DNA of 34,748 nucleotides from a virus (taxonomy: Duplodnaviria > Caudoviricetes), in IMG/VR virus record IMGVR_UViG_3300014613_001551, positions 1 through 34,748 of that record; one strand, given 5' to 3'. Each line of letters opens with the position of its first letter. Positions within the stretch are counted from its first letter, which is position 1. Below the pieces are notes generated by a model. That model had not been told where the DNA came from. It saw nothing but the letters and a program-made list of their open reading frames with translations, and did no database searches. The translations under genes and the position numbers were made by a program. This document shows, in pieces, positions 16,648 through 34,748 of the stretch.

Positions 16648-16741
16648 AGACACACTCCTAGTTGAAATTTATTGTCTATAGAGAGACTTTAATAGACTCA
16701 TTAAATTATTAAATGTTGAAAAAACTATTTATTCTACCTAT

Positions 16742-16771
16742 ATTATACCACAAAAGTATAGTCTATGTCAA
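16742..16771 (-). promoter_or_regulatory. sigma70-type promoter (family A) for head genes
   Basis: TTGACA-18 bp-TATAAT with extended -10 TG. Confidence 0.88.
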
Positions 16772-16850: not shown

Positions 16851-17201
16851 TTAGATAAAAATTTGATGATACGATAAAAAACTATCTACATCTTTTCCGT
16901 AGAGCAAGATTTCAAACCACTCAGATTCAAAAAATCTCATCAGACTACGATACAATAAATGCTCTTTTAGCTGACAGCTATAGAAATAATCATCCTTATT
17001 CTTAACAGCAAAATACTTCCTTCCATACTTGTTGGTCTTAAAGCAATTATTTACACACATGTATGGGCATATATCATTCTCTGAAAAACATACATGTTCA
17101 TACGCTAGAAAGGGCAGATTCTTTGTGTCTCTAATAGCCCTATCTACTATTGCATTAGCCAATGCTTCATATCCAACCTGATTTACATTATGCCTACCCA
17201 T
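16851..17201 (-). CDS. Conserved hypothetical phage protein
   Basis: YEALANAIVDRAIRD..RFFESEWF resembles a common uncharacterised phage protein; likely start ATG 17201, overlapping the upstream stop; Cys-containing insert. Confidence 0.65.
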   Translation of the reverse strand: MGRHNVNQVGYEALANAIVDRAIRDTKNLPFLAYEHVCFSENDICPYMCVNNCFKTNKYGRKYFAVKNKDDYFYSCQLKEHLLYRSLMRFFESEWFEILLYGKDVDSFLSYHQIFI

Positions 17202-18513
17202 CTGCCAATCGCCCTGTAAGCACTGCCTCATTGAATTTCTTTTGAGCATGATCCCAAGTCCAACTCTCAAATTTATTCTTGGCAGCTTGCCCATATTTAA
17301 TACGATACTCTTTTCTATTCCGATAAAAATCGATCAGCGTCTCACCCACTTGTTCAGCCGAGACATGAACTAGTTTCACACCAGTATGCCAATAATCATA
17401 AGAATCTTTTGGCGGTTTCATCATATAAGCAACATCACCATAGATCTCAGTTCGAGCAGTTCCATCATCAACTGTAGCAACTGGTACGCCACACATAGAA
17501 CTCTCCAGGGCCGGGAGTGAAAAACCATGCACGGAAGCCACATCCAACAGCATATCAAAAGTATTCAACTTAGTAATATAAGATGCCTGTGACCATAACT
17601 CTCCACGCTCTTCCATACTAGGGGGCCTATTCAAAGAAAGGAGCTTTTCTTTAGTATTCGGTTTGCTATATGCTCCCATTTTATATTTATACTTATCTTG
17701 TTCGGGCTTAAAAAGAAATGAATCAGCTACATCATAAACCTCACCAGTATAACGAAGGTCATACCCTTGGAGTGCGTTCTGATCATATTGCTGAGCATGT
17801 ATATAGATAATAATATGCTCATACTCTTCAGGATAATTATCTTTTATATATCGCATGGCTTCAAATACTTTAGGATAACAATTGGTACGTTTATTAACCC
17901 CTATCATACCAACAAAGAGCAAGTCATCCTCTATAGCAAACAGATTACGCAAATGTAGCCGCTCAGACTCTTCATATTCCTCAAATGGGGCATGGTCCCA
18001 ACCATGTGATACTTTATATGAAGTAACACCCCATTTAGATAATGCGTCAACCCCAAATTGACAATAGGTTAGTGGAACAGCAGATAACCTCCCAACATTA
18101 ACAGTGGATGGAAATATTGGTAAACCCTCAATAGGAAAATAGGATATTAGAGCAGTATGTTTACCAGGACCGATAATATTATTCTCTAACAGAAATCTGG
18201 CTCTACGCATTAGAGTACCTGGATCACCAACAAAGAATATTCTATCAGGCTCCACTTCATCGCACATTCTGCGCAACAGATTATCACCACCAGGATCATT
18301 AGCATTAGCAGGCCAATAGTGATAAGGAAGCTCACGCATCTTTTCATAATCAGGGGTTATATCTAATGATCCCAATACATATACATCAAAATTAGGATTT
18401 GCTACAAATCCCTCTACAGCCATTCTAACCACATTGCCAAAGCCACTAGTAACCATTGGCGAATCACCAAACACTAGAATCTTTAACGTCTCAGGTAGAA
18501 ACGGACTTTTCAT
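17194..18513 (-). CDS. Glycosyltransferase, GT-B fold (GT4-like)
   Basis: KILVFGDSP..SGFGNVVR N-terminus; VGMIGVNKRTN; HGFSLPALESSMCGVPV (EX7E motif with His at the first position). Confidence 0.9.
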   Translation of the reverse strand: MKSPFLPETLKILVFGDSPMVTSGFGNVVRMAVEGFVANPNFDVYVLGSLDITPDYEKMRELPYHYWPANANDPGGDNLLRRMCDEVEPDRIFFVGDPGTLMRRARFLLENNIIGPGKHTALISYFPIEGLPIFPSTVNVGRLSAVPLTYCQFGVDALSKWGVTSYKVSHGWDHAPFEEYEESERLHLRNLFAIEDDLLFVGMIGVNKRTNCYPKVFEAMRYIKDNYPEEYEHIIIYIHAQQYDQNALQGYDLRYTGEVYDVADSFLFKPEQDKYKYKMGAYSKPNTKEKLLSLNRPPSMEERGELWSQASYITKLNTFDMLLDVASVHGFSLPALESSMCGVPVATVDDGTARTEIYGDVAYMMKPPKDSYDYWHTGVKLVHVSAEQVGETLIDFYRNRKEYRIKYGQAAKNKFESWTWDHAQKKFNEAVLTGRLADG

Positions 18514-19397
18514 TTAATCCTCCTTAATATCTCTGTCCATAATTTAGGGTATACAATATGACTTCCGAACCTATTAACAACATATTCCCGCTCCTCTTCG
18601 GTAACTGGGCCCTTCACATCGTTTAACATTGCCTCAGTTAGGGCCATCACTCTTTCATCAAAGTCTAGAATCTCTGGTATAAAAATAGAAGTCTGATCAA
18701 ACCAATATCTATACATTGGATAATCCAAACATATAGGTCGGCAGCCACACAGAATCCCCTCAATATTCCCCAATTCCATACCTTCGACGTACCGCATACC
18801 ATTGCAAAACCTGCTTTTATTATATATCTCAACCATCTTCTCAACAGATACATTTTCAAAGTGATTAAACCCAGGACCAAAATTAAAGTTATGTCCCACA
18901 TGATTTGTTTCTAACATATTCAATGATGCTGCCTGATACATTTCTTTAATAAATTCCGATTCTGCAACATATCCGGTAGTCATTACTGCATTACGATCCC
19001 CATAATTGGTACGTACAAACACGTCGGTATCAACACCTATTGGCGTTCTTATCATATCAAAAGATATATCTGTAACCCATTCATCCAGTGGATAATAAGA
19101 CATTACTATTGCTTTACTCAAAATATCTCGATACAATTCCTTTGATGGAATATTGGCAGAACCACCAGTCTTGAAGCAATAGAAGAATACCAACATCCTA
19201 TCCATAGGTAAGGTAAACTCATTTAACTCGCCCTCACCTATTAAATGAACAAATCTATAATCTGCCTTATCGGGAGTATCAACAAACTCTATATTGTCGG
19301 GTGCAGATTGTTTTATATTATTGGCAGCAGTTCTAATTCCATACCCAATCTCATCTGGAACCTTTGAATATATTTTTATCATTTCCAGCAATTCCAA
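18510..19397 (-). CDS. Glycosyltransferase, compact GT-B (GT4-like)
   Basis: PIGVDTDVF; MVEIYNKS..EGMELGNIEGILCGCRPI (EX7E). Confidence 0.85.
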   Translation of the reverse strand: MELLEMIKIYSKVPDEIGYGIRTAANNIKQSAPDNIEFVDTPDKADYRFVHLIGEGELNEFTLPMDRMLVFFYCFKTGGSANIPSKELYRDILSKAIVMSYYPLDEWVTDISFDMIRTPIGVDTDVFVRTNYGDRNAVMTTGYVAESEFIKEMYQAASLNMLETNHVGHNFNFGPGFNHFENVSVEKMVEIYNKSRFCNGMRYVEGMELGNIEGILCGCRPICLDYPMYRYWFDQTSIFIPEILDFDERVMALTEAMLNDVKGPVTEEEREYVVNRFGSHIVYPKLWTEILRRIK

Positions 19398-19849
19398 ACC
19401 ATCTCGTGCATATCATGTTCAGTTACTCTCTCCACCTTACTAAATCCAACATCGTTTAATATAGATTCAAAAAGCTCAGGAGTGTAGCCAAATTTATGAT
19501 CAGTGAAAGGAACCGCCTCAAATGTTCCATATATATTATGTAAGATTTCTCTGTTGCCTGTCAATAATGTGGCAGCACAAGCTAGAATATTTGGAACACT
19601 TACTTCCAATAGTCCGCCTGGTTCTAACACGCGCTTTAATTCTAGTAATGCACCTATAACTTCATTCGGCCACAAATGTTCCAGTACATGAAAAACTTCT
19701 ATTCTACTAAAAGTATTATCTTCAAACATATTCATATCTCGTATATCCCCAACCAATACGCCAACACTTGGGCGTATGTCTAATAATATAACAGTATCAT
19801 CAAGATTATGCGTCTCACACTTAGACCCTATTGCAAGTATTGTTGACAT
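19379..19849 (-). CDS. SAM-dependent methyltransferase (Methyltransf_11-like)
   Basis: LAIGS..LDI..GDI..FEDNTFSRI..HVLEH..RVLEPGGLL..VP; type common in glycan clusters. Confidence 0.88.
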   Translation of the reverse strand: MSTILAIGSKCETHNLDDTVILLDIRPSVGVLVGDIRDMNMFEDNTFSRIEVFHVLEHLWPNEVIGALLELKRVLEPGGLLEVSVPNILACAATLLTGNREILHNIYGTFEAVPFTDHKFGYTPELFESILNDVGFSKVERVTEHDMHEMVWNCWK

Positions 19850-20346
19850 TAATTTCTACCTATACCAGTTAATGAGCTCCAATTTCTTCCTGTATGAATC
19901 ATACTTATTGTAGATGAGTGCACACCAAACATATATCCAAGATTTCGTTCTGTGTGTTCGCCTTTTAATCTTACTATTTCCAATACTTGTTCATTAGTAA
20001 GTTTAGCATTATGGTGCCTTTCACCAACATTTGATCCTTTTTTAGTGCCACACTTTCCTCTTCTTCCCTTGCTTATCATATCCTGTATATTATCTTTTTG
20101 TGTGCCCAAAAACAAATGATTTGGGTTAACACATCCTTTATTATCACACTTATGACAAACACATAAGCCCTCAGGTATTTCCCCAAATACTATTGTCCAT
20201 ACAAATCTATGTGCTAACAGTGTTTTTCTATTACACTTAAATTGACCATATCCCGCAATATGTAGGTATCCGCCCCAATCCCAACATGCATTATCATTCC
20301 CTTTATTAACATTATCCCAAAATCTTTTAACGTCTGATTCGTTCAT
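19849..20346 (-). mobile_element. Free-standing HNH homing endonuclease (HNH_3-like) with C-terminal HTH
   Basis: RFWDNV..CWDW..GYG..AHR..VCHKCDNKGCVNPNHL..GTQKDN..DM..KGR, then AKLT..V.EI helix-turn-helix. Confidence 0.93.
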
Positions 20347-20390
20347 ATCCTATCCTTTCTTCATTTGTATTGCATGTAATTTCGTCATAT

Positions 20391-21071
20391 TTATGTATGG
20401 TCCACATGTATATTAGGATCAACCCACACAGTAAAACCTAGACTTCTAGCATGATTACAGAAAGCCTTAACATCTAACTCAGTGCCATAACGTGCACCAG
20501 CCTGTACTACTTTACTTTTTGCTAAGAACATACTACCTACATTTTTAACTTCAAAAGTATCCAAATATTTATTAGCGAACCATTGCTTCGTTTGTTGGGG
20601 AAAGCCTTTACCATCAAGAAATTCGTGCGCCCACAGATCGTAAAAAACCCCATGACCCCATATCATCACCCCAATTACATCTTTATCATTTTTCATTAAG
20701 TCCTGTATCAATGTAGCTTTATTATGTGGCTGCAAATCAGGCTGATAATACATGAAATAATCTATACTTTCATCTTTAACCAACTCATTAAGCATGTGAT
20801 CATTTAACGTTCCTAAGATCCAAAACCTTTCAGGGCACACAACAGAACCGTATAGCGGTTTACCCAAGTCCAACTTAAATACTCTAACACGTGGCTCTAC
20901 TGCTTCCCATTCCTTCAATAGAGTATATGTATTATCCTTAGAATCGCCCTCTATAACAGAAACTGTCCAATTGGTATAATTCATAGCATAAATCTTTGCC
21001 TTATATTCTGCCACTCTATCTGCTCTATCTCGCAATAACGAAAAAATAGCTACCTTTGGTTCATCACTCAT
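20391..21071 (-). CDS. Glycosyltransferase, GT-A fold (Anp1-like/GT2-related)
   Basis: IEGDSKDNT; FYDLWA; VGSMFLAK..GARY; FCNHARSLGF.VW; QPD at the DXD position. Confidence 0.8.
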   Translation of the reverse strand: MSDEPKVAIFSLLRDRADRVAEYKAKIYAMNYTNWTVSVIEGDSKDNTYTLLKEWEAVEPRVRVFKLDLGKPLYGSVVCPERFWILGTLNDHMLNELVKDESIDYFMYYQPDLQPHNKATLIQDLMKNDKDVIGVMIWGHGVFYDLWAHEFLDGKGFPQQTKQWFANKYLDTFEVKNVGSMFLAKSKVVQAGARYGTELDVKAFCNHARSLGFTVWVDPNIHVDHT

Positions 21072-21760
21072 ACTCTTTCCCTCTCCAAATTTTCTATAAT
21101 TTTATCATAATTATAGTTTGAACCTTCTCGATTTAATATATATGGATTGCCAGCATATTTCTTTCTATTCTCTGCTTGCGCCTTCTTATATCTCTTCATT
21201 TTCTCTATCATATAATCAAGATACACATACTTTCCATCAGGAGTTTTTGCATCATGTATATCATAATGCTTAATCCAAACATTATCTATTCGTATTGGTT
21301 TGCTCATCCCTTCATGCACATAATGTATTATATCATTAAAACGAAATGTTGAATTATTCTTAAATATTCGTGGGTGCACCTCATGCGATCCACGATATAT
21401 ATTATGACGCGGTATATATATTGTTTCAAACCCTTTTTTATCTAACCTGATTATTCGATTCCTAAGATTTAATAAATCGCCTTCCCATCTCTCATCGGTA
21501 TCAGACCATAAAATCCACTCTCCTGTACACATTTCTCTTGCCAACTGTCTATGAGGATCGGCGAATCCGCGTCGCTCTTCAGTTGCATGAACCTTTGCAC
21601 CAAATGACTTAGCCACATTAAGAACATCCTCAATCTCAGGGCCATCACGAACTACGACTAATTCATCAACAAGACTTGTCATTTTTGTTAGAATTTCTTT
21701 TATATCTTTGGCATGGCCGTATGTCACTACCATAAAGGATAACTTTAATATATGCCCCAA
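21068..21760 (-). CDS. Glycosyltransferase family 2
   Basis: LSFMVVT..VDELVVVRDG..GFADPHRQLA..CTGEWILWSDTDE..PRIF..IH..IKHY. Confidence 0.9.
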   Translation of the reverse strand: MGHILKLSFMVVTYGHAKDIKEILTKMTSLVDELVVVRDGPEIEDVLNVAKSFGAKVHATEERRGFADPHRQLAREMCTGEWILWSDTDERWEGDLLNLRNRIIRLDKKGFETIYIPRHNIYRGSHEVHPRIFKNNSTFRFNDIIHYVHEGMSKPIRIDNVWIKHYDIHDAKTPDGKYVYLDYMIEKMKRYKKAQAENRKKYAGNPYILNREGSNYNYDKIIENLERERV

Positions 21761-21762
21761 AT

Positions 21763-22344
21763 TTACCTCTCTATACTCTCTTCATTTATAAACCATATTG
21801 TAGTGTTAGGAGCTACCTGTGCTAATGGCAATAACTCATTAACGGCTCGCTGCACCCCAGGCCAGGCCGGTGAATAATCGTGTCCTGATAATAGACCATC
21901 TACAGACAATAGATTTCTATAGTTTTGTATATCCTCTTTGATTGAATCATAATCATGTCCCGCATCCAAGAATATAAAGTCAAAGATTGGACCATAATCT
22001 TCTAATAGTTTGTGATATGATTCAGTTGATAATTTATTAATTACAGTCATACGTTCGTGGTGCCCAGACATATTATTCATAAATTGATTTAGAATATACT
22101 CTGGTCCAAGATTAATAACATCGGCAAAATCAACGCTATAATTTTCTATATCCTTTGGCCCAGAAAAATGGTCTACAAAGAAAAGATGTCCTGTACTATT
22201 ATCTGCCAATGATCTTGAACTTCTACCCTTCCAACAACCAACCTCTAATATATCTTTCTTATTCTGTGCCTGCTGCGCCAACCATAGGAGTTCTCCGTCA
22301 AATGTCCACCCCTCTACTTTTTGTGCATTTGATATATCTACCAT
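21763..22344 (-). CDS. SAM-dependent O-methyltransferase (Methyltransf_24-like)
   Basis: ILEVGCWKGRSS..VDHF..FDFIFLDAGHDY..DI..LL..GLLSGHDY..WPGVQRAV. Confidence 0.92.
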   Translation of the reverse strand: MVDISNAQKVEGWTFDGELLWLAQQAQNKKDILEVGCWKGRSSRSLADNSTGHLFFVDHFSGPKDIENYSVDFADVINLGPEYILNQFMNNMSGHHERMTVINKLSTESYHKLLEDYGPIFDFIFLDAGHDYDSIKEDIQNYRNLLSVDGLLSGHDYSPAWPGVQRAVNELLPLAQVAPNTTIWFINEESIER

Positions 22345-22365
22345 GTATTCTCCCTTACCAATGTT

Positions 22366-23097
22366 TTAAGTCCAATGAAATAAAAAATTGTACTTACCGC
22401 CACCTTGGGTTTCTGGACGATGTGATACCATTTCCTCTTTGGTGCGAGCACACTTATATCCCTTACTCTTAAAGTATTCTAGCAACGCCCAATCGCCACC
22501 TTCTGTTGGATGCGCTGTAGGATAATCTAGAGCATCGAGAAATATCTTTGTTTCCATAAAATTACAATTGCCAGAAACATACGTAGATATGGGATAATCC
22601 TCCCAATATTCTCCTGGTGTCATGCCCTTTGCGTAATTGCCATCTAAATGCCTACAATGAAAGGGGGACACAATACTAATCTCATAGGGGCTTCGTTTCA
22701 AATCTTCGTATGTATCAACACACTCTTTTAACCAATTCGGCTTATATTGCATATCATCATTGGTTATAAGACAATACTTTGGCATTGGTATTTTTGGGTT
22801 CTCTGAAGTAATCTTCATTAAAGCTCGCCATTGATTAAGTGCATGATGAATACCCCAATTTCGTTTCTCTATTATTAACTTCTCTATAGCACCATCATAT
22901 ACCTTCTGAAGCAAATACTCTCTTGTTCCATCATCATTTCCATTATCTATAACCCAAAGCCTAAGAGGATAGCCTGGTTCCTCCATCATTGATTCAATAG
23001 ACTCTTTAACAATTTCATATCGTTTCCATGTGTATATCAGGGCCAAACACGCATCATCGTCTATTTGATAATCAACAAAACACGGACTCATGCGCAA
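22366..23097 (-). CDS. Glycosyltransferase family 2
   Basis: TWKR..LWVIDNGNDDGTREYL..NWGIHHALN..ITNDDM..WL..GGDW. Confidence 0.9.
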   Translation of the reverse strand: MRMSPCFVDYQIDDDACLALIYTWKRYEIVKESIESMMEEPGYPLRLWVIDNGNDDGTREYLLQKVYDGAIEKLIIEKRNWGIHHALNQWRALMKITSENPKIPMPKYCLITNDDMQYKPNWLKECVDTYEDLKRSPYEISIVSPFHCRHLDGNYAKGMTPGEYWEDYPISTYVSGNCNFMETKIFLDALDYPTAHPTEGGDWALLEYFKSKGYKCARTKEEMVSHRPETQGGGKYNFLFHWT

Positions 23098-23846
23098 TAC
23101 ACCAATGTAATATACGTCTTAGATACCTTAAATCCAACACTACTATATAACCTCATAGCCGAGATATTAGATAGTTGTGTTCCTACACTAACAGAGTCAA
23201 TACCCTTCTCATAGAAATAACGAAGATTAGCTTTAACTAGTTCGCGCCCAATACCCAAGCCAGACATTTCTTTACGAACAGCAGTAATGCCAATAACCCC
23301 ACGCTTATTTTCGCACAAACGGCAAGTCGAGAACCCACCTATAACAGCATCACGGTCAACAACATCCACACTAGTATCATACTTGCCCTCTACACTGTTC
23401 TTTATCCAAGCCTTATAAACATTATCTGCAACGTCCTTTGATAAAAATGGATCACAATGGTAACGATCACTCTGAAACGCTGAACCAGATATATCTATCA
23501 ATTCATTAAGATCTTCTTCAACTGCCGCGCGTGTTCTATAGGTATCTGATAGAATTAATCTCTTATCCCATCCAATCTGGAAATTATACTCTAAATACCC
23601 ATCTACCATAATGAATCCATATTCTTCTAATGCTTGAATAATATCTATCTTTATACTCGGCACTCGTACCATTATGTGCTTATATCTAAAATCATGAAAT
23701 GCTATTTGCGTTATAATATTCTCTATTAAATCATAGTTGGCTGTTCTAACTTTAAGCTCACATGCAAGTCCCCCAAATAACTCCGAATCCCATGGCTTAT
23801 CAATAACTGTAAACTCATTATTGTCTAATACTACATTATCCACCAT
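23088..23846 (-). CDS. GNAT N-acetyltransferase, WecD/RffC-like (NDP-4-amino sugar acetyltransferase)
   Basis: WDSELFG N-terminal motif, DRYHCDP..VYKAWI, GLGIGRELV, VGTQLSNISAMRLY..GF. Confidence 0.88.
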   Translation of the reverse strand: MVDNVVLDNNEFTVIDKPWDSELFGGLACELKVRTANYDLIENIITQIAFHDFRYKHIMVRVPSIKIDIIQALEEYGFIMVDGYLEYNFQIGWDKRLILSDTYRTRAAVEEDLNELIDISGSAFQSDRYHCDPFLSKDVADNVYKAWIKNSVEGKYDTSVDVVDRDAVIGGFSTCRLCENKRGVIGITAVRKEMSGLGIGRELVKANLRYFYEKGIDSVSVGTQLSNISAMRLYSSVGFKVSKTYITLVYCA

Positions 23847-24291
23847 TATTTTCTCCTATAAACACACTCAATGGCAACATGCGATAGAAATACAAAATAT
23901 ATGATCTATTGTTATGCACTCGCTTAATAACTCTATCCGGCGGCAGCGCGGCTATATTTAGTTTAAGTTGCTGCATGTCTAAAGGTGTAAGTACGAAACA
24001 AGCACCCCCAAGATGGTCCGCCTCTGAATTATAAGTAGCTTCTGCAAACACCAACAACTGTTCATCAGGTTCAAAATCATCCAAATTTGCATCCAGAGTA
24101 TCCTTTACATACCTTGTAATTGAAAGACCTGTAGCAATACCCATATTACAGAAGGTCTTCCCAATTAACAATACATCTCTGAAATCATACTCATCTACCA
24201 ATTGGGCAAAGAGATAAGCCAACGCTAGAGTTTCCTCAATAGGATCAAACAACACAGGCTTTAGAATCCCTTTATAATTAAACTGTTTCAT
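23836..24291 (-). CDS. Hypothetical protein (151 aa)
   Basis: AGGAG RBS, coupled between aminotransferase and acetyltransferase; no recognised motif. Confidence 0.7.
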   Translation of the reverse strand: MKQFNYKGILKPVLFDPIEETLALAYLFAQLVDEYDFRDVLLIGKTFCNMGIATGLSITRYVKDTLDANLDDFEPDEQLLVFAEATYNSEADHLGGACFVLTPLDMQQLKLNIAALPPDRVIKRVHNNRSYILYFYRMLPLSVFIGENNGG

Positions 24292-25404
24292 CTATCTACT
24301 CCTACAGTAACTCTCGATAGACTCAATTACATAATCTACCTGTTCCTCTGAAATCTCTGTAAATAACGGAAGAGAAACACAGTGTTGTCCAAACTCCTCT
24401 GCTTTGGGACAACTGCCCTCAAATCGATTCCTATACCAGGGATGAGTTGTCAGAGAAGTAAAATGAACCCCACAATATATATCCCTCTCACGCATGAATT
24501 CAATAAACTCTTGTTGTTGGTCAATCATAATAACATAAATATATGGTACAGACAGACCAAAAGCTGACTTTGGTTTACGGGCAATAAAAGAATATTTCTG
24601 CTCAAGCTCGTAAAACGCTTGTTCATATTCTTCAACTGCCATCCATCTACCCACCATCAATGGAGCAACCCGTCTTAGTTGCTCAAGAATAATAGCCGCC
24701 GAGAGATCCGTTAAGTTTTTCTTATATCCCGGAAACTCAACCATTGGACAAGCAGAACTGGAACGACCCGTATATCTATCTTCTGCGCCCTTACTTAAGC
24801 CATGTAGACGCGCCTTTCTAATCCATGTATCCTGCTCGGCTGATTGACCTGTTATAATCCCCCCTTCAGCACCTGCTATAATCTTAGTGGGATAAAATGA
24901 AAAACAAGTTAGATTATCCAAGCCGCCCACATAAGTATTATCATCATACTTACCAAAATGAGCTTCTGCTGCATCCTCAATAACGGGTATGGCACGTGCC
25001 ATTAGGTTTAGAATATCAAGAATCTCTCCTGCATAATGAACTCCCATTATAGCATCAGCATTGTCCAAAGCTGGATGATTTACGTCCATCAAGCCAGTCT
25101 CATCAACATCTACGAATAATGGAATATTTCCTGTTGTTTCAATAACATTGGCTGAAGCAGCAAAAGTAATAGGCGAGACAGCAATTACAGCCTTTTGTAG
25201 ACCTAGAGCCTCAATACAAAGTTGAAGGGCTGAGGTGCAACTATCTACTGCAATAGCATTTCTTGGAGCACCAACTATTTTAGCAAACTCATTTTCTAGC
25301 TCTGCTACTTTATTGCCCATTGTCCACCAACCAGACTTTAGACAATCATCAACCGCAGAGCGTTCTCTAGCTGTTACCGATGGCGTACAGAACGGTACGT
25401 TCAT
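24292..25404 (-). CDS. DegT/DnrJ/EryC1/StrS PLP-dependent sugar aminotransferase
   Basis: SGWWTMG..SCTSAL..TFAASAN..VHYAG..IEDAAEA..FSFYPTKII.GAEGG..SLPL. Confidence 0.96.
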   Translation of the reverse strand: MNVPFCTPSVTARERSAVDDCLKSGWWTMGNKVAELENEFAKIVGAPRNAIAVDSCTSALQLCIEALGLQKAVIAVSPITFAASANVIETTGNIPLFVDVDETGLMDVNHPALDNADAIMGVHYAGEILDILNLMARAIPVIEDAAEAHFGKYDDNTYVGGLDNLTCFSFYPTKIIAGAEGGIITGQSAEQDTWIRKARLHGLSKGAEDRYTGRSSSACPMVEFPGYKKNLTDLSAAIILEQLRRVAPLMVGRWMAVEEYEQAFYELEQKYSFIARKPKSAFGLSVPYIYVIMIDQQQEFIEFMRERDIYCGVHFTSLTTHPWYRNRFEGSCPKAEEFGQHCVSLPLFTEISEEQVDYVIESIESYCRSR

Positions 25405-26374
25405 GTTCTAACACCTCCCTTATCCGCTTGACAGTGTAGTATCGAGTATCATTAGGATTTTCTATTTTATTCACACAAGCCTTTATCATATCTAATTGCT
25501 GTGCAAATTCCTCAGTCCATTCCATATTATCAAAAGGTTCTTTCACAGCAACTGGCAACATACGATAGTTTCTTGAATCAAGATTCTGTGATTCAACTCT
25601 TACTTTAGCATCAAAATATTCACCAATGATATTAGCCAAGTCAAGAATGGTTATATTGAAATCAACAACATTTATAATATACCCTTGATTTACAGATGTA
25701 TTAAACAATGCTGCAATGTAAGAATTAACTGCATGTGATACATGAAGAAATGGACGATACTGTTGCCCCCCATACACAGTAAGCTCACCAGTAGTAATCG
25801 CATCAAACACCATCTTGTTAATAGCTAAGTCCAATCTGAGCCGTGCTGATGGTCCATACAGAGTAGCCATACGAAGAATGAATGGTTGCCAATTATCATC
25901 TGCCATTGCCCACAAATCTCTCTCGGTCTCTAGTTTCTCACTAGCGTACAATGAAATTGGAAATGTGGGTGACCATCTTGAACAAGCATAATTAACTGCA
26001 CCGTATACTGAAGCAGACGAAGCAAAAATGAACTTAATTCCTCGTTGATAACACTGGTACGCCAATTGAATAACACTAAAATGATTTATTAGTTTAGTTA
26101 ATGTGGGGTTAATTTCAGATGCTGGATCATTACTAATTGCAGCCAACCATATAACAGCATCTACACTATCAAAACTATCTAATTCTTTTACCCAATCCAT
26201 TTGTTCAACTCGACAGTTTACTAAAAAATACTTGCCATAAGGTTGCTTGGTAACATTCTCACCAAAGAACAAAGCATCATAATTAACAATGTAATCTATT
26301 TCTGGGAAATTCAACAATCTATCAATTAATACACTCCCCAGATAGCCACTACCGCCAGTAATTAAACACCGCAC
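25367..26374 (-). CDS. Extended SDR NDP-sugar epimerase/dehydrogenase
   Basis: GGSGYLG, LAAISND, ASSASVYG, YASEK (YxxxK), RMATLYGPSARLRLDLAIN, RPFLHV. Confidence 0.95.
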   Translation of the reverse strand: MRCLITGGSGYLGSVLIDRLLNFPEIDYIVNYDALFFGENVTKQPYGKYFLVNCRVEQMDWVKELDSFDSVDAVIWLAAISNDPASEINPTLTKLINHFSVIQLAYQCYQRGIKFIFASSASVYGAVNYACSRWSPTFPISLYASEKLETERDLWAMADDNWQPFILRMATLYGPSARLRLDLAINKMVFDAITTGELTVYGGQQYRPFLHVSHAVNSYIAALFNTSVNQGYIINVVDFNITILDLANIIGEYFDAKVRVESQNLDSRNYRMLPVAVKEPFDNMEWTEEFAQQLDMIKACVNKIENPNDTRYYTVKRIREVLEHERTVLYAIGNS

Positions 26375-27682: not shown

Positions 27683-29383
27683 TTATTTTTTCAATATTGT
27701 ATCTAATTCACTCTCACTCATCAAAATACTACTCCCTTTTTTCTGCCCAACAAGCATACGCGATAGACTATTGTTAATCTCTTCTGGTGATTTCTCAGAC
27801 TCTTCCTCCTCTTTCTCTTTTGGTTTCTCCTCCACAACAACTTCCGATGTTCCGCCGAAATTCGGGTCCTCATATTCCTTGCCCGGTTCTACTATGGGAA
27901 TATTATTAACGGCGGCTAGAGCCTTCCAATCAATCTCATTTGCAACAGCATGTTTAGCATTAACTGCCTGCATTAACAACTTGAGGAGTGCATCCTTTTC
28001 AGCAATATTCAACCCCTCTGTCACCAACTTAACCTTTGCTTCTGACTCATCACCATACTTGTATTTCACAAACTTTGTCAATAAATAACTATTAAGCTGA
28101 CTTATAATCTCAGTCAATACCCTCTCACTATCTAACAATGTTACTTGATAGTGTACATCAGCCATACCATAAGAGCCCGTACCCTGAGTTGTAGCTACAG
28201 TATCAGGCAAAATAACAGACCTAAGAATTAGAGTTCCCAATAGATTGAGAGCATTGATAAATTGATCTCCTCTAAGGTCACTCTTTAAGTATTCTAATGA
28301 GTATAATGGATTACCATCTGGGTCAGTGTCTGATGGTATTGCAATAGCTGGGGAACGAGCAGCACGATAGGCTACACTAAGTGCTTCATCTAATGCCTCT
28401 ACATAAGTTCCATCAGACTTCCTAACAGTAAAGTTAGACGGAGCCTTTGCCAAAAGTTGTGGGGTTCCAGTACGTTCCAAATATCTAACAAATGACCGCC
28501 AAATAATATCATAAAAGAAAAAGAATGGGTACACCGCTTTAAGAGCAGACTCCCCATATACATTCCTGAATCTCTTATTATAAGATATTACTAGACTTTG
28601 CTCCAATGGTATGTTCACATCTGGTCCGGGACTTCCCGATTGAGTAAAGCCATTAAATGAACTCCCATGATACTTTACCTTTTTAATCGACCCTAAATAG
28701 ATGGGATTAATATCCGCCACCAAGGGATTGTTCTTGCTAACTTTCCAGACTATCTCATTAAACGATGCGCCATAGTCAAAGCAAGTTAAGAGATTTGTAA
28801 TTGTCTTGGGCAGTATCTCATACATGTTCTCTTTAATAGCAGTTTGATAAGCACTCTTAACTCCATCAAACTCAAAGGAATAAGAACGCTTATTGCGAAA
28901 GATAGACGCTATTGGTGCTTTCTTCAACGCCAAGCCGAATAAAACCTGACCACACTTAAGCATATCCTCAATATGACTAATATTAAAATCAGCGGCGTAA
29001 TTAACATACGGATTTGTTTTATTGTTCTTGCCAACATACATGCTACCGTACAACACTGACTCATAACCCCCACTACTTCTAGTAACTGTAGGTGGAGCTT
29101 CAGCCATTCTTGCAAAGGCTATTACTTGCTCTAAGTCTCGTTGCAGATGTTTATACTCACTCTTTCCAGACACCTCCTTTAGAATATCTATAACCTCTGA
29201 TGGAAATTCAGCACTAAAAGATTCAATAACATGTTCTTTTTCCTGTTGCTCTCTATACATCTTCTTTTGTTCTCTATCAGTTCGCCCCCATCTTGAATAC
29301 GCAGCATGACGCTTACAATAAGTGCTGGCAGCAATAACAGGAGTACCACAGATTGCGCAAGTACCTTTTTTCTTGGTTACCAT
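27683..29383 (-). CDS. Portal protein (Mu gp29/DUF935-like) with N-terminal Cys/His extension
   Basis: Follows TerL; DYGASFNEIVW, NVYGESALKAVY..W..YLERTGTP, TGSYGMADVH motifs; AGGAG RBS. Confidence 0.9.
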   Translation of the reverse strand: MVTKKKGTCAICGTPVIAASTYCKRHAAYSRWGRTDREQKKMYREQQEKEHVIESFSAEFPSEVIDILKEVSGKSEYKHLQRDLEQVIAFARMAEAPPTVTRSSGGYESVLYGSMYVGKNNKTNPYVNYAADFNISHIEDMLKCGQVLFGLALKKAPIASIFRNKRSYSFEFDGVKSAYQTAIKENMYEILPKTITNLLTCFDYGASFNEIVWKVSKNNPLVADINPIYLGSIKKVKYHGSSFNGFTQSGSPGPDVNIPLEQSLVISYNKRFRNVYGESALKAVYPFFFFYDIIWRSFVRYLERTGTPQLLAKAPSNFTVRKSDGTYVEALDEALSVAYRAARSPAIAIPSDTDPDGNPLYSLEYLKSDLRGDQFINALNLLGTLILRSVILPDTVATTQGTGSYGMADVHYQVTLLDSERVLTEIISQLNSYLLTKFVKYKYGDESEAKVKLVTEGLNIAEKDALLKLLMQAVNAKHAVANEIDWKALAAVNNIPIVEPGKEYEDPNFGGTSEVVVEEKPKEKEEEESEKSPEEINNSLSRMLVGQKKGSSILMSESELDTILKK

Positions 29384-32253
29384 ATACGACTCCTAAATTT
29401 CTCACTGGGGTCTTCAACCCCAAAGAATGTTGGATTTAATTCAGTATAATATCCTTCTCTAGCCATATCAGGTACACTCTCATACTGACGCTTAGGACCA
29501 GCCATCTGATAATCAGCATCATTATGACGTGGATCATTCAGTTCAGATACAATGACAATACCATAAGACGTCAATGATTCATACGCCCAAGCTAAAGCAA
29601 CTACTAAATCATCATGTCTGCCAGAGGGTGCGTTCATACCTCCGCTATTATCATAAGAATATGCTAAAAGTTGATTAAAAGTTTCAGGATCAGTAATAGT
29701 AACCTCACCACTCTCTAAGGCTACTGCTAATTGAGTCATAATAGCTGGCTTGGATTTGGAAGTCATCTTTCTTGGAATTAGTCTACAATTTGGTAATTCT
29801 GGCAACTTGTGCATCTTATAGACAGTCATACCAGTACCATTAGCCTCAATAATCATAGGTCCGGGAAAATCTTTATGTATCCTAGATACGCGTCCGGGAA
29901 GCACTATATCTATCCCATTACGACTCTGTATACTACCTGCCCAAGCAGATAAAGTATCTTGATTGTTTTCAGCATAAATTTGTACCCCTTGCTCATTAAG
30001 AACAACAGCACTATGACAATCACCTAGTTTTCCTCTACCTTCAGCAGTATCAATACCAGTAAAAGATAGTCTAGTTTTCTCTTTTACAAACTTGGGTTTA
30101 TAGCAATTTTTCACCGAAGCTAGATCAAACACTGGATTTCCAGAGCCAACAAAGTCACACTCATACTCCTGTAGAATCTGCTTCTTTGTCATGCCCTCAG
30201 TAGCCTTAGAATACCATGCCTCATCAAATCCGCAATTCTTCCAATGTACTTTAAGCGCGGAAAAACTATTCTCATTATAGAGAGCCTCAAAGTAGATTCT
30301 ATCAAACAGGGCTCCTTTAAGCCCGTGTGGGGTATTATGGCACACCAGCCCATTTACACAATATTCATGTATATTACTAACAGAAAAATCATAGGTTTCT
30401 TCTGAAGGAAGAGATTTATTAACATCGGTTACCTTTACCCATCGTATATTAGGCGCATACAAGGATTTCAAGTATTTATATTCAGGGGTATCCCTAAGCT
30501 CTACATACAAATCTAGAATACGCAATAATTGACGTTTGGAAACATGTTCCGCTATAGTTCTTGTAACACTGTGCTTAACCTCAGCCCTCATTCTATGAAA
30601 TCGTAATATTTCTGGTGGCTGAAGGGTCCAATTATCTAAATGTTTACTAAGAGCTTTTACCGCGTTACTTGCATACGGAACCACATCTTGTCTCCCCTTC
30701 GATAAAGGGACAATCCCCTGTTTCCTTTTAACTCTAAATCCTACAACACTAAGAAATCGATTAACATCATACAATGAGGTTATACAAAGTGCATACATAT
30801 CATGCTGAGAGCATACTTGCCTCCCATTAACTATAGTTTTCCGACCCGCCGGGATAGTACACCTTATACGCGAGTATATTCCCAAATTTAATAAAATCTG
30901 TTGAGTCTGCTGTAAAAGCACCAACGAGGCTGAAGAAAGAACAACAGCACAACCACCATCACGTGGACGTGGATGCGTACCATCAGCATCGAATAAGCCC
31001 TGTAAGAATCCAATAACTACCTCTCGCGGAGCAGTTAAAATTCGCTTCGGAATTATCTTATCAAAAGACTTCAAAGAAAAGTCAAAACCAATCAGCTCTA
31101 AATACCCTGCTAAAAATTTAGAACTCTTCCTATAACCTTGATCCCCAAACTTTGTAAATTTCCAACCACCTTGTCCTGACGTTAAGAAATCAGTTATTTC
31201 TCCATCACTATTACTTATAGTTACCTGATAATGATTATCATTAGTACGAATATACCCATCGCCTATCAACAGACCACACAAATATCCAATATCCGCCGTT
31301 GGGACAAAGTCATCAGTCCCAAAAATGTTTTGGTTATAGGACAGGGCTACAAAGTCATCAACTATTAAATCCTCTGCATTAATCCACCCCTCATAATTCT
31401 CCCTACGCACCCAAAATTTATGATTAGGCGTACACTTTGTTTCAACGCCCAAAGATGTCCGTACTCCCAAAATAGGCGATTTGCCATTATTAAAAACTTT
31501 ATCAACCTCCTGCATCCCATTTCTAGTATGTAGCTGACAACAATATAGTAAGTCATTAAATCCAGGACTTTTTGCATGTTGAACAAATTCAGAAACCTGG
31601 CGTAATCCATTATTTGTATACACATAATTATCAGCAGTCAAACAACTAACCAAAGCCGCCTGACCTGCGTGTGATAAAGTAGGCTTCATAGACTCCCACA
31701 TTACTTCTGATTCTTTATCCGGCCAGAAAGCAACCTCATCCCCCAGTACAAAAGCATAACTTTCTCCTCTACCAGCATGACCTGTTGTAGTAGACGACGC
31801 TATAACAGAAGTTCCAAGAATCTGTCCATAAGTTTCACTAGAAGGATCGTCATCTCTAAATCCAAACTTGATAAGAGTCTTGGTCTCGGAAAGCATCTCA
31901 CCAGTCAACCATTCTGGCATATTACTGATTAGATACTTGACCTTGTCCAACAGAAAAATAGCAGACCTCTCTGTTCTTGAGACAAATAGGACATCTTTAT
32001 TCTGATGCAACATAGCTACCCATAATCCATAAGCGGCCAATGTCCAAGACATTCCCACCTGCCTGGATTTAACTACAACAATATCCTCTCCCGCCTCTAA
32101 TCTCTCTAAAATATCCGTTTGCCAATCATACAGATCCCATCTAATGCGACCACGAGAAGGATGTCTTAAATATCCAAAGTGAGACAATAAATAACAAGCA
32201 CTAGTGGAACAAGCAGTCAGTTCCTCTAGTTGTGCATCAGTTAGATAGATCAT
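29377..32253 (-). CDS. terL: Terminase large subunit (958-aa precursor, ~521 aa after intein splicing)
   Basis: LYDWQ, KSRQVGMS (Walker A-like), VLGDEVAF (Walker B), split S/TPHG coupling motif, nuclease GIDTA..IEAN..HDDLVVALA. Confidence 0.96.
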   Translation of the reverse strand: MIYLTDAQLEELTACSTSACYLLSHFGYLRHPSRGRIRWDLYDWQTDILERLEAGEDIVVVKSRQVGMSWTLAAYGLWVAMLHQNKDVLFVSRTERSAIFLLDKVKYLISNMPEWLTGEMLSETKTLIKFGFRDDDPSSETYGQILGTSVIASSTTTGHAGRGESYAFVLGDEVAFWPDKESEVMWESMKPTLSHAGQAALVSCLTADNYVYTNNGLRQVSEFVQHAKSPGFNDLLYCCQLHTRNGMQEVDKVFNNGKSPILGVRTSLGVETKCTPNHKFWVRRENYEGWINAEDLIVDDFVALSYNQNIFGTDDFVPTADIGYLCGLLIGDGYIRTNDNHYQVTISNSDGEITDFLTSGQGGWKFTKFGDQGYRKSSKFLAGYLELIGFDFSLKSFDKIIPKRILTAPREVVIGFLQGLFDADGTHPRPRDGGCAVVLSSASLVLLQQTQQILLNLGIYSRIRCTIPAGRKTIVNGRQVCSQHDMYALCITSLYDVNRFLSVVGFRVKRKQGIVPLSKGRQDVVPYASNAVKALSKHLDNWTLQPPEILRFHRMRAEVKHSVTRTIAEHVSKRQLLRILDLYVELRDTPEYKYLKSLYAPNIRWVKVTDVNKSLPSEETYDFSVSNIHEYCVNGLVCHNTPHGLKGALFDRIYFEALYNENSFSALKVHWKNCGFDEAWYSKATEGMTKKQILQEYECDFVGSGNPVFDLASVKNCYKPKFVKEKTRLSFTGIDTAEGRGKLGDCHSAVVLNEQGVQIYAENNQDTLSAWAGSIQSRNGIDIVLPGRVSRIHKDFPGPMIIEANGTGMTVYKMHKLPELPNCRLIPRKMTSKSKPAIMTQLAVALESGEVTITDPETFNQLLAYSYDNSGGMNAPSGRHDDLVVALAWAYESLTSYGIVIVSELNDPRHNDADYQMAGPKRQYESVPDMAREGYYTELNPTFFGVEDPSEKFRSRIW
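30334..31644 (-). mobile_element. Intein with LAGLIDADG homing endonuclease (437 aa) in terL
   Basis: VS/CLTADNYV N-junction, CTPNHKF block B, LCGLLIGDG and FLQGLFDADG, TYDFSV..GLVCHN/TP C-junction. Confidence 0.96.
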
Positions 32254-32681: not shown

Positions 32682-32711
32682 ATTATACCATATTAGTATG
32701 ATCTATGTCAA
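32682..32711 (-). promoter_or_regulatory. sigma70-type promoter (family A) for packaging genes
   Basis: TTGACA-18 bp-TATAAT with extended -10 TG. Confidence 0.88.
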
Positions 32712-32728
32712 GCACCCTACATGTTTCA
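32702..32728. repeat. 27-bp direct repeat, copy 2
   Basis: Identical to 16762-16788. Confidence 0.95.
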
Positions 32729-32730
32729 AG

Positions 32731-32834
32731 AAAAAACAGTGTGCCTAAAAAAACAGTACCTCTAAAAAAGAAGCACATAAAAAATTTGGTACTAAAAAAA
32801 CTAAGGTAACAAAAAAAGATGAGTACCCTTTTTT
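32731..32834. repeat. Array of six A6-7 tracts with ~16-bp period
   Basis: A-tracts start at 32731, 32747, 32764, 32779, 32794, 32811; T6 at 32829. Confidence 0.8.
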
Positions 32835-32853
32835 ATCAAAGTATGATGGATGC

Positions 32854-32883
32854 TTGACATAGATGATGCTTTTGTGGTATAAT
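32854..32883 (+). promoter_or_regulatory. sigma70-type promoter (family A), divergent
   Basis: TTGACA-18 bp-TATAAT with extended -10 TG. Confidence 0.88.
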
Positions 32884-32930
32884 AGGGGGTAGGAAAAATA
32901 AGAAAATGTCAAGCACAGGAGCAAATTATA

Positions 32931-33683
32931 ATGAACCCCAAGCATATCGTATCTTTTTCAGGTGGTAAAGATAGTACAGCAATGTTACTAATGATGTTAG
33001 AAAAAGATTGGCCCATGGACGATATTATTTTTGTGGATACTACTAAAGAATTTCCGTCAATGTATGACCATATCAAAAGGGTTGAGAACTACATCGGCCG
33101 AGAGATTACAAAAGTAGAAATTGCGTTTGATTATTGGCTAGGTAAACATGTAAAAACTAAAGGAAAGAATAAAGGGAAGATAGGATATGGCTGGGCTGAT
33201 TTTAGAAATAGATGGTGTACTGGCCTAAAAAGAGAAGCATTTGTAACTACTGCTAACAAAAGTAAGAAGTATAACCCATACCATCGGTATGGGTTAGCAG
33301 GTTGTCCAAACACAATTGAGTACCATGGAATAGCTAGTGATGAAGCGCATCGAACTAAAAATAATAAATATGTAGATAGAATTATTAAATATCCTTTAGT
33401 CGAATGGGGTATCACCGAAAAGCAAGCATTGGAATACTGCTATGCTAAAGGTTTTGATTGGGATGGGCTATATGAACAATTCGTTCGCGTCAGTTGTTTT
33501 TGCTGCCCTTTCTCACGACTGGGTGAATTAAAAACAGTCTATACTAAATACCCCAAGTTATGGCAGCAGATCAAGAAGATGGACAAGAAAAGCTATAGAA
33601 AGTTTCGAGCTGACTATTCCCTCGATGAATTAGAAAAAAGGTTCCAAAAAGAATGTACACAATTAACGTTATGTGATCAATAA
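32931..33683 (+). CDS. PAPS reductase-family (PP-loop, Cys-cluster) protein
   Basis: SFSGGKDS PP-loop, DTTKEFP, RWCT..LK, YPL..W, RVSCFCCP; lacks the C-terminal ECGLH of CysH. Confidence 0.9.
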   Translation: MNPKHIVSFSGGKDSTAMLLMMLEKDWPMDDIIFVDTTKEFPSMYDHIKRVENYIGREITKVEIAFDYWLGKHVKTKGKNKGKIGYGWADFRNRWCTGLKREAFVTTANKSKKYNPYHRYGLAGCPNTIEYHGIASDEAHRTKNNKYVDRIIKYPLVEWGITEKQALEYCYAKGFDWDGLYEQFVRVSCFCCPFSRLGELKTVYTKYPKLWQQIKKMDKKSYRKFRADYSLDELEKRFQKECTQLTLCDQ

Positions 33684-33710
33684 TATATAAAAAGGTTTTT
33701 AATCTACCTA

Positions 33711-33739
33711 TTGACAAAACTCGTTTTCTGTGGTATAAT
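33711..33739 (+). promoter_or_regulatory. sigma70-type promoter (family B-like) upstream of ORF-free structured region
   Basis: TTGACA-17 bp-TATAAT with extended -10 TG. Confidence 0.9.
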
Positions 33740-33745
33740 AGAAGT

Positions 33746-34345
33746 AGGTTAATAGGATAGATAATTTATAATAAAGTCCACGAAACTACTTTAGTCTGAT
33801 GGTATACTATATTGAGAGAGTTGATCTTTTTCACATCCAAAAAGGAGAAGTGATAAGACCACTTGCATCCGGTGAACATGCCTAGAGAGCAGAGGATGAC
33901 ACTAAAAGAATAGACGCTACAAAGGTGGAATTACACACAAACACCTAAAATAAGTGTAGGTGCGAATAGAGTCTAATGAGTGGACTTTATTCTGAACTGT
34001 GACGGGGCTAATAATAATACCGTTTCACAGGGGTGCCAATTATGTTAAAGACCGGTCGTAACACCCCAACCAAGACCGGGCCAAACGACAGCTGGTGGTT
34101 CCAGGAAACTGAGATAACTCAGGAGAGGCGTCGAAATAGGAAGTTTAGCTCAGCTTAGCTAACACGTCACAGCGCAGCCCTCGTTGACGTTACTACCTAA
34201 AGTAGAGGACTCCATGCAGGAGTCTATAAGCCAGGTACGAACTAAACACTTGTATCTGACTTGCAGGCGAGCACCGAACAGTCACTCGTTCCGCAGCAAT
34301 GTGATGTAGCTGTTTCTGGAAAAAATCGACTGTTCTACCCTCCTA
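33746..34345 (+). ncRNA. Candidate large structured ncRNA (~600 nt), family unassigned
   Basis: Follows a consensus promoter; no ORF in track; 12-bp long-range helix 33770-81/33980-91, multibranch domain closed by 34099-109/34312-21, many hairpins, G-U pairs on the + strand, two pseudoknot pairings. Ends approximate. Confidence 0.7.
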
Positions 34346-34379
34346 TGTCGCATTTTATTTAAAATCGGAGAGCTAATTA

Positions 34380-34748
34380 GCTACTTGGCTGAGAGCAAGC
34401 CAAGTTTAGGTCTACAGTCTACTGTTCCTCTTGCTTAAACAACCAGCTTAAGGAACATCGACTCTTGACCTAAATAATTTTAATAGTAAAATATGTCTAT
34501 TATACTTGGCAACGAGACAGCCAAGTTTTATTATTAGATGGCTTATCTTCTTACCTTTAACTACCAACTGTTATGACTTAGCCATCTTAAACTTTCTGTC
34601 TACGCCAAAAGTTTAATACTATCTCTTGTAAAACTAAGGACTCTTTAAGCAATATTGATTTCATACTATGGCTTGACCTTAGCTCAGTATCAACATTGCC
34701 AACTACTCACAAGATTGTTGTTCCAACAGTGAGTCTAAGTCTATTGAA
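34380..34748 (-). ncRNA. Candidate second structured element (hairpin array), probably minus strand, may continue past the window
   Basis: Eight near-adjacent stems; A-C mismatches on + become G-U on -; internal loops purine-rich on -; two related ACTTGGC..GCCAAGT hairpins. Confidence 0.5.

What the first reader, a model, noticed from the sequence alone, without database searches (positions are those of the whole stretch)
33711..34345. Promoter-driven ~600-nt highly structured ORF-free RNA
Seen after a perfect promoter. Domain 1 is closed by AATAAAGTCCAC 33770-81/GTGGACTTTATT 33980-91, with inner stems CATCC/GGATG, TAGAC/GTCTA and CACCTA/TAGGTG. Then hairpins 33997-34030 and GGGTG/CACCC 34031-66. 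A large junction closed by TTCCAG-G-AAAC/GTTTCTGGAA holds hairpins at 34109-22, 34145-62, 34164-90, 34193-205, 34208-24, 34232-58 (two G-U), 34267-89 and 34294-312. Size and complexity recall phage-associated large ncRNAs such as GOLLD and ROOL, but I recognise no known family, so it may be a new class.
Basis: partly seen in the sequence, partly recalled or inferred. Interest (0 to 1): 0.85.

Follow-up and report, generated by a model that had tools for sequence, protein, structure and literature searches.

The report
Orphan 600-nt structured phage RNA
An uncultured groundwater phage points a perfect promoter into a 1-kb stretch with no protein gene, whose first 600 bases are GC-rich, fold better than shuffled sequence and match no catalogued RNA family, so it likely makes a new large non-coding RNA, although no relative or transcript was found to confirm the fold.

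Summary
The sequence observation holds. A 12/12 sigma-70 promoter (33711-39) faces 1,065 ORF-free bases at the end of a tailed-phage contig. The contig's 5 other promoters of this type each precede a gene.

All named stems exist. The fold beats chance only moderately (z -2.8, 0 of 100 shuffles; 25 of 26 control windows weaker; a real ROOL scores -1.3). 33997-34346 is 49% GC against 24-39% in other gaps.

Rfam gives no hit, while the ROOL positive control works. No homologue turned up in any collection, and no RNA run is listed, so covariation and expression are untested.

Folding does not fix the strand; only the promoter does.

New here: a likely second internal promoter (33788-33820), and a stronger, minus-strand structured tract at 34351-34748 (z -6.4), cut by the contig end.

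Best reading (0.5): a stand-alone ~600-nt phage ncRNA working like ROOL/GOLLD but not a member of either. The scan has noted large orphan phage RNAs before on other DNA (81 notes by words, none alike in sequence).

The parts
33711..33739 (+). Promoter P1, TTGACA-17-TATAAT with extended -10 TG
   Evidence: 12 of 12 consensus. Same type as promoters at 32854(+), 32711(-), 27669(-), 16771(-), 10166(-), each just before a gene.
33746..34346 (+). Candidate large non-coding RNA, about 600 nt (both ends inferred)
   Evidence: ORF-free; z -2.76, 0 of 100 shuffles; GC 43.8% against 24-39% in 5 other gaps; no Rfam hit.
33752..33757 (+). 5' arm of predicted end-closing helix with 34341-34346
   Evidence: Pair probability 0.92; 4.9% of shuffles have such a helix. 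A second ATAGGA at 34136-41 competes for the same 3' arm.
33770..33991 (+). Domain 1, closed by the 12-bp perfect helix 33770-81/33980-91; inner hairpins 33813-33, 33866-98, 33911-75, 33942-62
   Evidence: Probabilities 0.69, 0.76, 0.49, 0.24, 0.70. z -2.6 plus, -3.7 minus.
33788..33820 (+). Likely second, nested promoter P2 (extended -10 at 33800-33808, no -35); would start a ~530-nt form near 33815
   Evidence: 32 of 33 nt match to another 4,785-nt contig at similar depth in run X1, with unrelated flanks. Shares a 13-mer with the phage promoter at 10146-10134. Function inferred.
33997..34098 (+). Middle region: hairpin 33997-34030, then either GGGTG/CACCC or CCGGTC/GACCGG (together they would be an H-type pseudoknot)
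   Evidence: z +0.3, not above chance as a nested fold.
34099..34346 (+). Domain 3: run of hairpins 34109-22, 34145-62, 34164-90, 34193-205, 34208-24, 34232-58, 34294-312; closed either by TTCCAG/CTGGAA or by 34276-83/34328-35
   Evidence: z -2.3 plus against -0.8 minus; helix probabilities; constrained models.
34353..34377 (.). AT-rich polymorphic spacer just past the predicted 3' end
   Evidence: Run X1 has one unbranched contig over 32851-34352, then two alleles from 34353 on.
34351..34748 (-). Second, convergent ORF-free structured tract, cut by the contig end; candidate second RNA or 5' part of one long minus-strand RNA
   Evidence: z -6.4 minus, -3.7 plus; 12 G-U among 118 confident pairs on minus, 0 among 86 on plus.
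32931..33683 (+). Upstream neighbour: PAPS-reductase-domain gene with its own promoter at 32854 (context)
   Evidence: PF01507 E 1e-12; phrog_424.

Best explanation
Host sigma-70-type RNA polymerase likely transcribes, from the perfect promoter at 33711-39, a stand-alone non-coding RNA of about 600 nt (roughly 33746-34346) that is predicted to fold into three domains and would act in trans like ROOL and GOLLD, as a self-assembling RNA scaffold that holds host or phage molecules during infection. Shown: the promoter sequence, the absence of an ORF, the raised GC, folding above shuffles, and no Rfam match. Inferred: transcription, both ends, the strand (from the promoter alone) and early timing. 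Analogy only: oligomerisation and sequestration (about 0.15-0.2 on their own).
For: The contig's 5 other promoters of this type each precede a gene; this one faces 1,065 ORF-free bases. z -2.76, 0 of 100 shuffles, weaker in 25 of 26 control windows, and stronger than a true ROOL at -1.3. 33997-34346 is 48.9% GC, above all 665 overlapping 350-nt windows upstream (max 48.6%; bounds chosen after looking), while other gaps are 24-39%. A predicted helix joins the two ends (p 0.92). Strain variation starts 7 nt past that helix. Domain 3 favours the plus strand. Size matches ROOL's average of 581 nt (PMC5737381, passage).
Against: No homologue was found, so there is no covariation. Whole-length folding is as good on the minus strand (z -3.15; 15 G-U of 151 confident pairs against 8 of 133), and a mismatch-type test was uninformative (2 G-T, 3 A-C). 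No plus-strand intrinsic terminator. No tRNA in this 27%-complete contig. Loop-loop helices (5 against 2.3, P 0.09; 13 against 9.6, P 0.23) and palindromic loops (4 of 12 against 2.2, P 0.14) are not enriched. The invariance in X1 also covers the upstream gene, so it is not specific to the RNA.
Confidence: 0.5

Rival explanations
1. The folded molecule is one minus-strand RNA of 1 kb or more that starts beyond the contig end. P1 (and P2) would make a counter-transcript that controls or titrates it.
For: Minus-strand z is -6.4 for 34351-34748, -3.7 for domain 1 and -3.15 for the whole tract. The 33911-75 arm forms a longer nested helix with G-U pairs on the minus strand. The whole kilobase is ORF-free.
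Against: Domain 3 favours plus (-2.3 against -0.8). A polymorphic AT-rich spacer separates the two tracts at 34353-77. GC differs sharply, 44% against 35%. No minus-strand promoter can be seen because the contig ends.
Confidence: 0.2
2. P1 and P2 are left over from lost genes, or head a very long leader for genes beyond the contig end. The transcript exists but its fold is incidental.
For: A promoter-like segment and an SD-like AAGGAG (33842-47) before an 11-codon GTG frame lie inside the tract (sequence). z is moderate. No conservation is shown. The middle region is at chance level.
Against: No pseudogene-like frame over 54 codons. The SD-to-GTG spacing of 2 nt is too short (own knowledge). 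GC is above that of the coding DNA, whereas this phage's other gaps are AT-rich. 25 of 26 control windows fold worse.
Confidence: 0.15
3. A DNA-level element: a replication origin, packaging or terminal region, or small inverted-repeat insertion, at the junction of the two gene arms near the small terminase gene.
For: It lies 1 kb from the putative small terminase gene, where gene strands diverge. Perfect 12-bp inverted arms bound a 222-nt unit. Folding is nearly strand-symmetric.
Against: No iteron array or long direct repeats. No target-site duplication beside the 12-bp arms (sequence). No second copy in the contig. The tract is GC-rich, and origins usually hold AT-rich unwinding tracts (own knowledge).
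Confidence: 0.1
4. A highly diverged ROOL that the Rfam model misses.
For: Size about 600 nt and phage location. By eye, four or five motifs of 7-13 nt resemble the ROOL consensus or the L. salivarius ROOL, for example at 33855-67, 33909-16, 33970-81.
Against: No RF03087 hit at E<=10, while the control scores 130 bits. No pairwise nhmmer match to the control ROOL at E<=100. The motif spacing differs: the look-alike helix encloses about 55 nt here against about 300 in ROOL.
Confidence: 0.05

Closest known systems
ROOL RNA (Rfam RF03087)
   Same: About 580-600 nt, phage-borne, stand-alone, many stems, ends predicted to pair (PMC5737381 passage; model consensus).
   Different: No model hit with a working control; no pairwise similarity; different nesting of helices; no tRNA on this contig; pseudoknots and octamer cage not shown here.
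GOLLD RNA (Rfam RF02032)
   Same: Large ornate phage RNA with two-part architecture; uses palindromic kissing loops (10.1101/2024.12.08.627333, sections 4 and 6).
   Different: The solved GOLLD is 833 nt; no model hit; palindromic loops here are not above chance.
Staphylococcus phage K lnc001/lnc002
   Same: Abundant phage long ncRNAs; lnc001 is described as having its own early promoter (PMC9241854 passages).
   Different: No sequence match in the phage collection; those lie beside tRNA genes and are shown to be transcribed.
OLE RNA
   Same: About 600 nt (recalled), multi-domain.
   Different: Bacterial, works with OapA/OapC proteins; no Rfam hit; no such neighbour among 35 proteins scanned.

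Membership tests
ROOL (RF03087) | Match to the covariance model | tested here: not met
   No hit at gathering score or E<=10; positive control 130.4 bits. All runs used the tools' filters.
ROOL (RF03087) | Length near 581 nt, in a phage or prophage | tested here: met
   About 600 nt inferred; virus record with terminase, portal and capsid genes.
ROOL (RF03087) | [quoted passage not shown] | tested here: inconclusive
   Single sequence only; nesting looks different from the model consensus; loop pairings not enriched.
ROOL / GOLLD | Often next to tRNA genes | tested here: inconclusive
   0 tRNA genes in the window, but the contig is 27% complete and ends 400 nt downstream.
ROOL / GOLLD | RNA-only homo-oligomeric cage | not testable with these tools
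   Needs mass photometry or cryo-EM.
GOLLD (RF02032) | Match to the covariance model | tested here: not met
   0 at E<=10. No true GOLLD was run as a control; 5 of 14 control genomes rang below the cut-off.
OLE, HEARO, raiA, RNase P, SRP, group I/II intron cores, riboswitches | Match to the Rfam model | tested here: not met
   0 of 4,227 families at gathering score; 3 chance-level hits (E 3.7-8.2) to unrelated small families. No family-specific controls were run.
tmRNA / intron-bearing tRNA | tRNA-like domain or tRNA exons | tested here: not met
   ARAGORN 0 genes. At a relaxed threshold: 0 tmRNA, and 4 intron-tRNA calls, one inside the coding gene, taken as noise.
Cis-regulatory leader / retron, DRT or OMEGA guide RNA | Partner ORF (controlled gene, reverse transcriptase or nuclease) directly downstream | tested here: inconclusive
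   No ORF in the 400 nt that follow; sequence beyond 34748 could not be read.

The most novel reading that the evidence does not exclude
The end of this phage arm carries a tail-to-tail pair of two unrelated, undescribed large structured RNAs: a ~600-nt plus-strand RNA made in a long and a short form from nested promoters, and a more tightly folded minus-strand RNA of 400 nt or more. At least one is a new class of self-assembling phage RNA outside ROOL and GOLLD and independent of tRNA arrays.
Probability: 0.25. Interest if true: 0.75.

Novelty: new variant of a known kind. Interest (0 to 1): 0.45.

Why it matters
Only a few classes of large, protein-independent bacterial and phage RNAs are catalogued, and their functions are open. 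Whether cage formation is common among large natural RNAs is stated as undetermined in 10.1101/2024.12.08.627333 (Discussion). An unrelated 600-nt candidate can be transcribed in vitro and tested for oligomerisation directly. Its value is limited by being a single sequence without covariation or expression data, and by the scan having noted many similar orphan phage RNAs with stronger support.

Tried and rejected
HOMOLOGUE SEARCHES, ALL EMPTY
- blastn against phages and plasmids: no match.
- Five motif scans of viral contigs gave 0, 51, 13, 28 and 45 loci. One scan of genome contigs gave 11. None extended beyond the seed by nhmmer or by eye. Rfam on 20 of the last 45 loci: 0 hits. Two loci sharing flanks proved to be chaperonin coding sequence (GroEL-like by my recognition).
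- Neighbour-gene routes: terminase N-terminus, 0 loci. Portal, 3 loci at 30-36% identity with no RNA match in locus or whole record. Portal in metagenomes, 0 of 592 stretches. PAPS-reductase, best 80 of 364 loci from a scan that stopped early, 0 matches. Terminase relative in metagenomes, 32 loci: one is the window itself and was left out, 0 of the other 31 match.
- Whole genomes: 9 of 401 Bacillota-phylum genomes gave only 20-36-nt matches at E 5e-4 to 9e-3, taken as chance; 0 of 401 Chloroflexota-phylum genomes.
- The nearest relative (portal 67%, terminase 75%, on a 95-kb contig) and a 37-kb assembly of this phage could not be fetched. The lineage is rare: 6 small-terminase relatives among 1.8 billion representatives.

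EXPRESSION: no RNA holder listed; this is no evidence either way.

OTHER TESTS
- My own pseudoknot, kissing-loop and palindromic-loop ideas were not above chance (the mask had a one-base overlap at 34109).
- The strand test by mismatch type was uninformative.
- Building my own ROOL model failed: only one ROOL was obtained (0 of 151 genomes; no phage match).
- RNase P, group I intron and raiA motif resemblances were recalled, not from a call, and rejected because Rfam gave nothing.
- A dif-like cassette array is unlikely: the paired hairpin motif occurs only twice.

LITERATURE: searches listed no paper on this element. Six motifs were absent from 6 supplementary files of PMC10690425, but files 1, 2 and 4 could not be searched, so it may be listed there. 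bioRxiv supplements were closed.

Full report
Setting. The window is a whole virus record, 34,748 nt, linear, about 27% complete. The three public runs that hold part of the region are groundwater DNA metagenomes. It encodes a tailed-phage head module on the minus strand: intein-bearing large terminase, portal, a block of sugar-modifying enzymes, head protease and major capsid protein. At 32.7-32.9 kb two back-to-back promoters turn transcription to the plus strand. A PAPS-reductase-domain gene follows (32931-33683), then 1,065 bases without a gene up to the contig end.

The promoter. 33711-39 matches the sigma-70 consensus at 12 of 12 with an extended -10. Five more promoters of the same build occur in the contig (32854, 32711, 27669, 16771, 10166), and each lies just before an ORF in its own direction. 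This one has no ORF over 41 aa behind it, and alternative codes give at most 73-91 stop-free codons. That it fires, and that the start is near 33746, is inference.

The fold. 33746-34350 folds at z -2.76, 0 of 100 dinucleotide shuffles. Of 26 same-length control windows, 25 had z above -1.7; the exception overlaps the inverted promoter pair. A genuine ROOL scores only -1.3 in the same test, so a moderate z is no objection. The 12-bp helix appears in 1.3% of 1,000 shuffles and the hairpin count is 8 against 4.1 (P 0.04); helices of 8 or 9 bp are not enriched (P 0.16, 0.10). The 3' 350 nt are 48.9% GC, above all 665 overlapping windows upstream, and the five other gaps are 24-39% GC (bounds chosen after looking). 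Raised GC in non-coding DNA of an AT-rich genome is a usual mark of RNA genes (own knowledge).

The architecture is not settled. The 12-bp helix and most local hairpins have probabilities of 0.7-1.0. A 6-bp helix joining 33752-57 to 34341-46 (p 0.92) brackets the unit from just after the inferred start; it arises in 4.9% of shuffles and has a competitor at 34136-41.

Strand. Folding does not decide it. Whole tract: -2.76 plus, -3.15 minus. Domain 1: -2.6 and -3.7. Domain 3: -2.3 and -0.8. Confident G-U pairs: 8 of 133 plus, 15 of 151 minus. A mismatch-type count was too small to use. The plus-strand assignment rests on the promoter.

First, 33788-33820 matches another 4,785-nt contig of run X1 at 32 of 33 bases with unrelated flanks; its depth is 8.7, against 8.4-10.5 for this phage's main contigs. 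The stretch holds an extended -10, and 13 of its bases recur in the phage promoter at 10146. I read it as a second, nested promoter without a -35, which would give a ~530-nt form lacking the 5' arms of both closing helices; that the other contig belongs to the same phage is inferred from depth. Second, 34351-34748 folds at z -6.4 on the minus strand with minimum-energy and centroid structures nearly equal (plus -3.7), and has 12 G-U pairs of 118 on minus against 0 of 86 on plus. It is a stronger RNA candidate than the finding, convergent with it and cut by the contig end. Between the two lies a polymorphic AT-rich spacer: X1 is unbranched over 32851-34352 and splits into two alleles at 34353, one of which replaces 34413-34500 by 45 other bases.

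Known families. Rfam 15 gives nothing at gathering score in the whole window, and only three chance hits at E<=10 in the last 1.1 kb. ROOL and GOLLD searched alone give nothing at E<=10. The L. salivarius megaplasmid ROOL, fetched as a control, scores 130 bits. A few short motifs resemble ROOL by eye, but nhmmer finds no pairwise match at E<=100 and the spacing differs. ARAGORN finds no tRNA or tmRNA. So this is not a member of ROOL, GOLLD or any catalogued family by the tests available, though it may work like them.

Homologues. None were found. All collection scans, neighbour-gene routes and 802 sampled genomes were empty or at chance level. The lineage is rare, and its few close relatives lie on contigs I could not fetch. 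Several scans are exact-match or stopped early, so this is absence of evidence. The runs laid show no differences within 33745-34352, so they give no covariation.

Mechanism. I commit, at 0.5, to a stand-alone ~600-nt RNA made by host polymerase that folds and acts in trans. By analogy with ROOL and GOLLD it would self-assemble and hold tRNAs, ribosomes or proteins. Those two form 8- and 14-chain cages, and encapsulation is itself only a hypothesis of the authors (10.1101/2024.12.08.627333: abstract, sections 4, 6, 7 and part 1 of 22 read). That last step is analogy, about 0.15-0.2. Rivals: one long minus-strand RNA with a counter-transcript (0.2); leftover promoters or a long leader with an incidental fold (0.15); a DNA-level origin, packaging or insertion element (0.1); a diverged ROOL (0.05).

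Literature and earlier scan notes. ROOL's size and tRNA/prophage context come from passages of PMC5737381, and the phage K long RNAs from passages of PMC9241854. For PMC10690425 I saw the listing and searched 6 supplementary files without a match; 3 files could not be searched. Six searches listed no paper on this element. The scan's own index holds nothing alike in sequence and no note on this genome. It does hold 81 notes on large structured phage RNAs in other genomes (8 shown) and two orphan promoter-driven tracts judged weak. These are unchecked leads and not support.

Verdict. A real promoter-led, ORF-free, GC-rich and moderately folded tract that matches nothing catalogued. It is probably a large phage non-coding RNA of a new sequence family within a known kind, unproven for want of a second sequence or a transcript. 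Interest 0.45; 0.75 if the convergent pair of new RNAs is real (probability 0.25).

Noticed in passing
window 34351-34748 (-): ORF-free tract folding at z -6.4 on the minus strand with many G-U pairs, cut by the contig end; candidate second RNA. Holds two similar hairpins at 34383-34405 and 34504-34526. No Rfam, phage or scan match.
   Followed up: partly
window 33788-33820 (+): 33-nt promoter-like segment with an extended -10 and no -35, nearly identical to a segment of another contig at similar depth in run X1; may mark a second promoter class of this phage.
   Followed up: partly
window 34353-34500 and 34643-34661: Strain variation in runs X1 and X2: a diverged spacer, an 88-nt stretch replaced by 45 nt between the two similar hairpins, and a 9-nt insertion after 34644.
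   Followed up: partly
window 32682-32883: Two back-to-back perfect promoters form a 55-nt inverted repeat at 76%; a third near-copy lies at 16771.
   Followed up: no
window 17194-26374 (-): Block of about ten sugar-nucleotide and modification genes (epimerase, DegT aminotransferase, GNAT, glycosyltransferases, methyltransferases) between portal and capsid genes. Distant relatives L002 and L004 have ORF blocks in the same place that look similar by eye. Possibly virion or DNA glycosylation.
   Followed up: no
window 29377-32253 (-): Large terminase carries a LAGLIDADG intein; relatives P0018 and P0019 are 521 aa, about the length expected without it.
   Followed up: no
window 15346-16653 (-): Head maturation protease with an N-terminal ChaB domain.
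   Followed up: no
window 33826-33856 (+): An SD-like AAGGAG followed 2 nt later by GTG and an 11-codon frame, partly paired in a hairpin; spacing too short for normal initiation.
   Followed up: no
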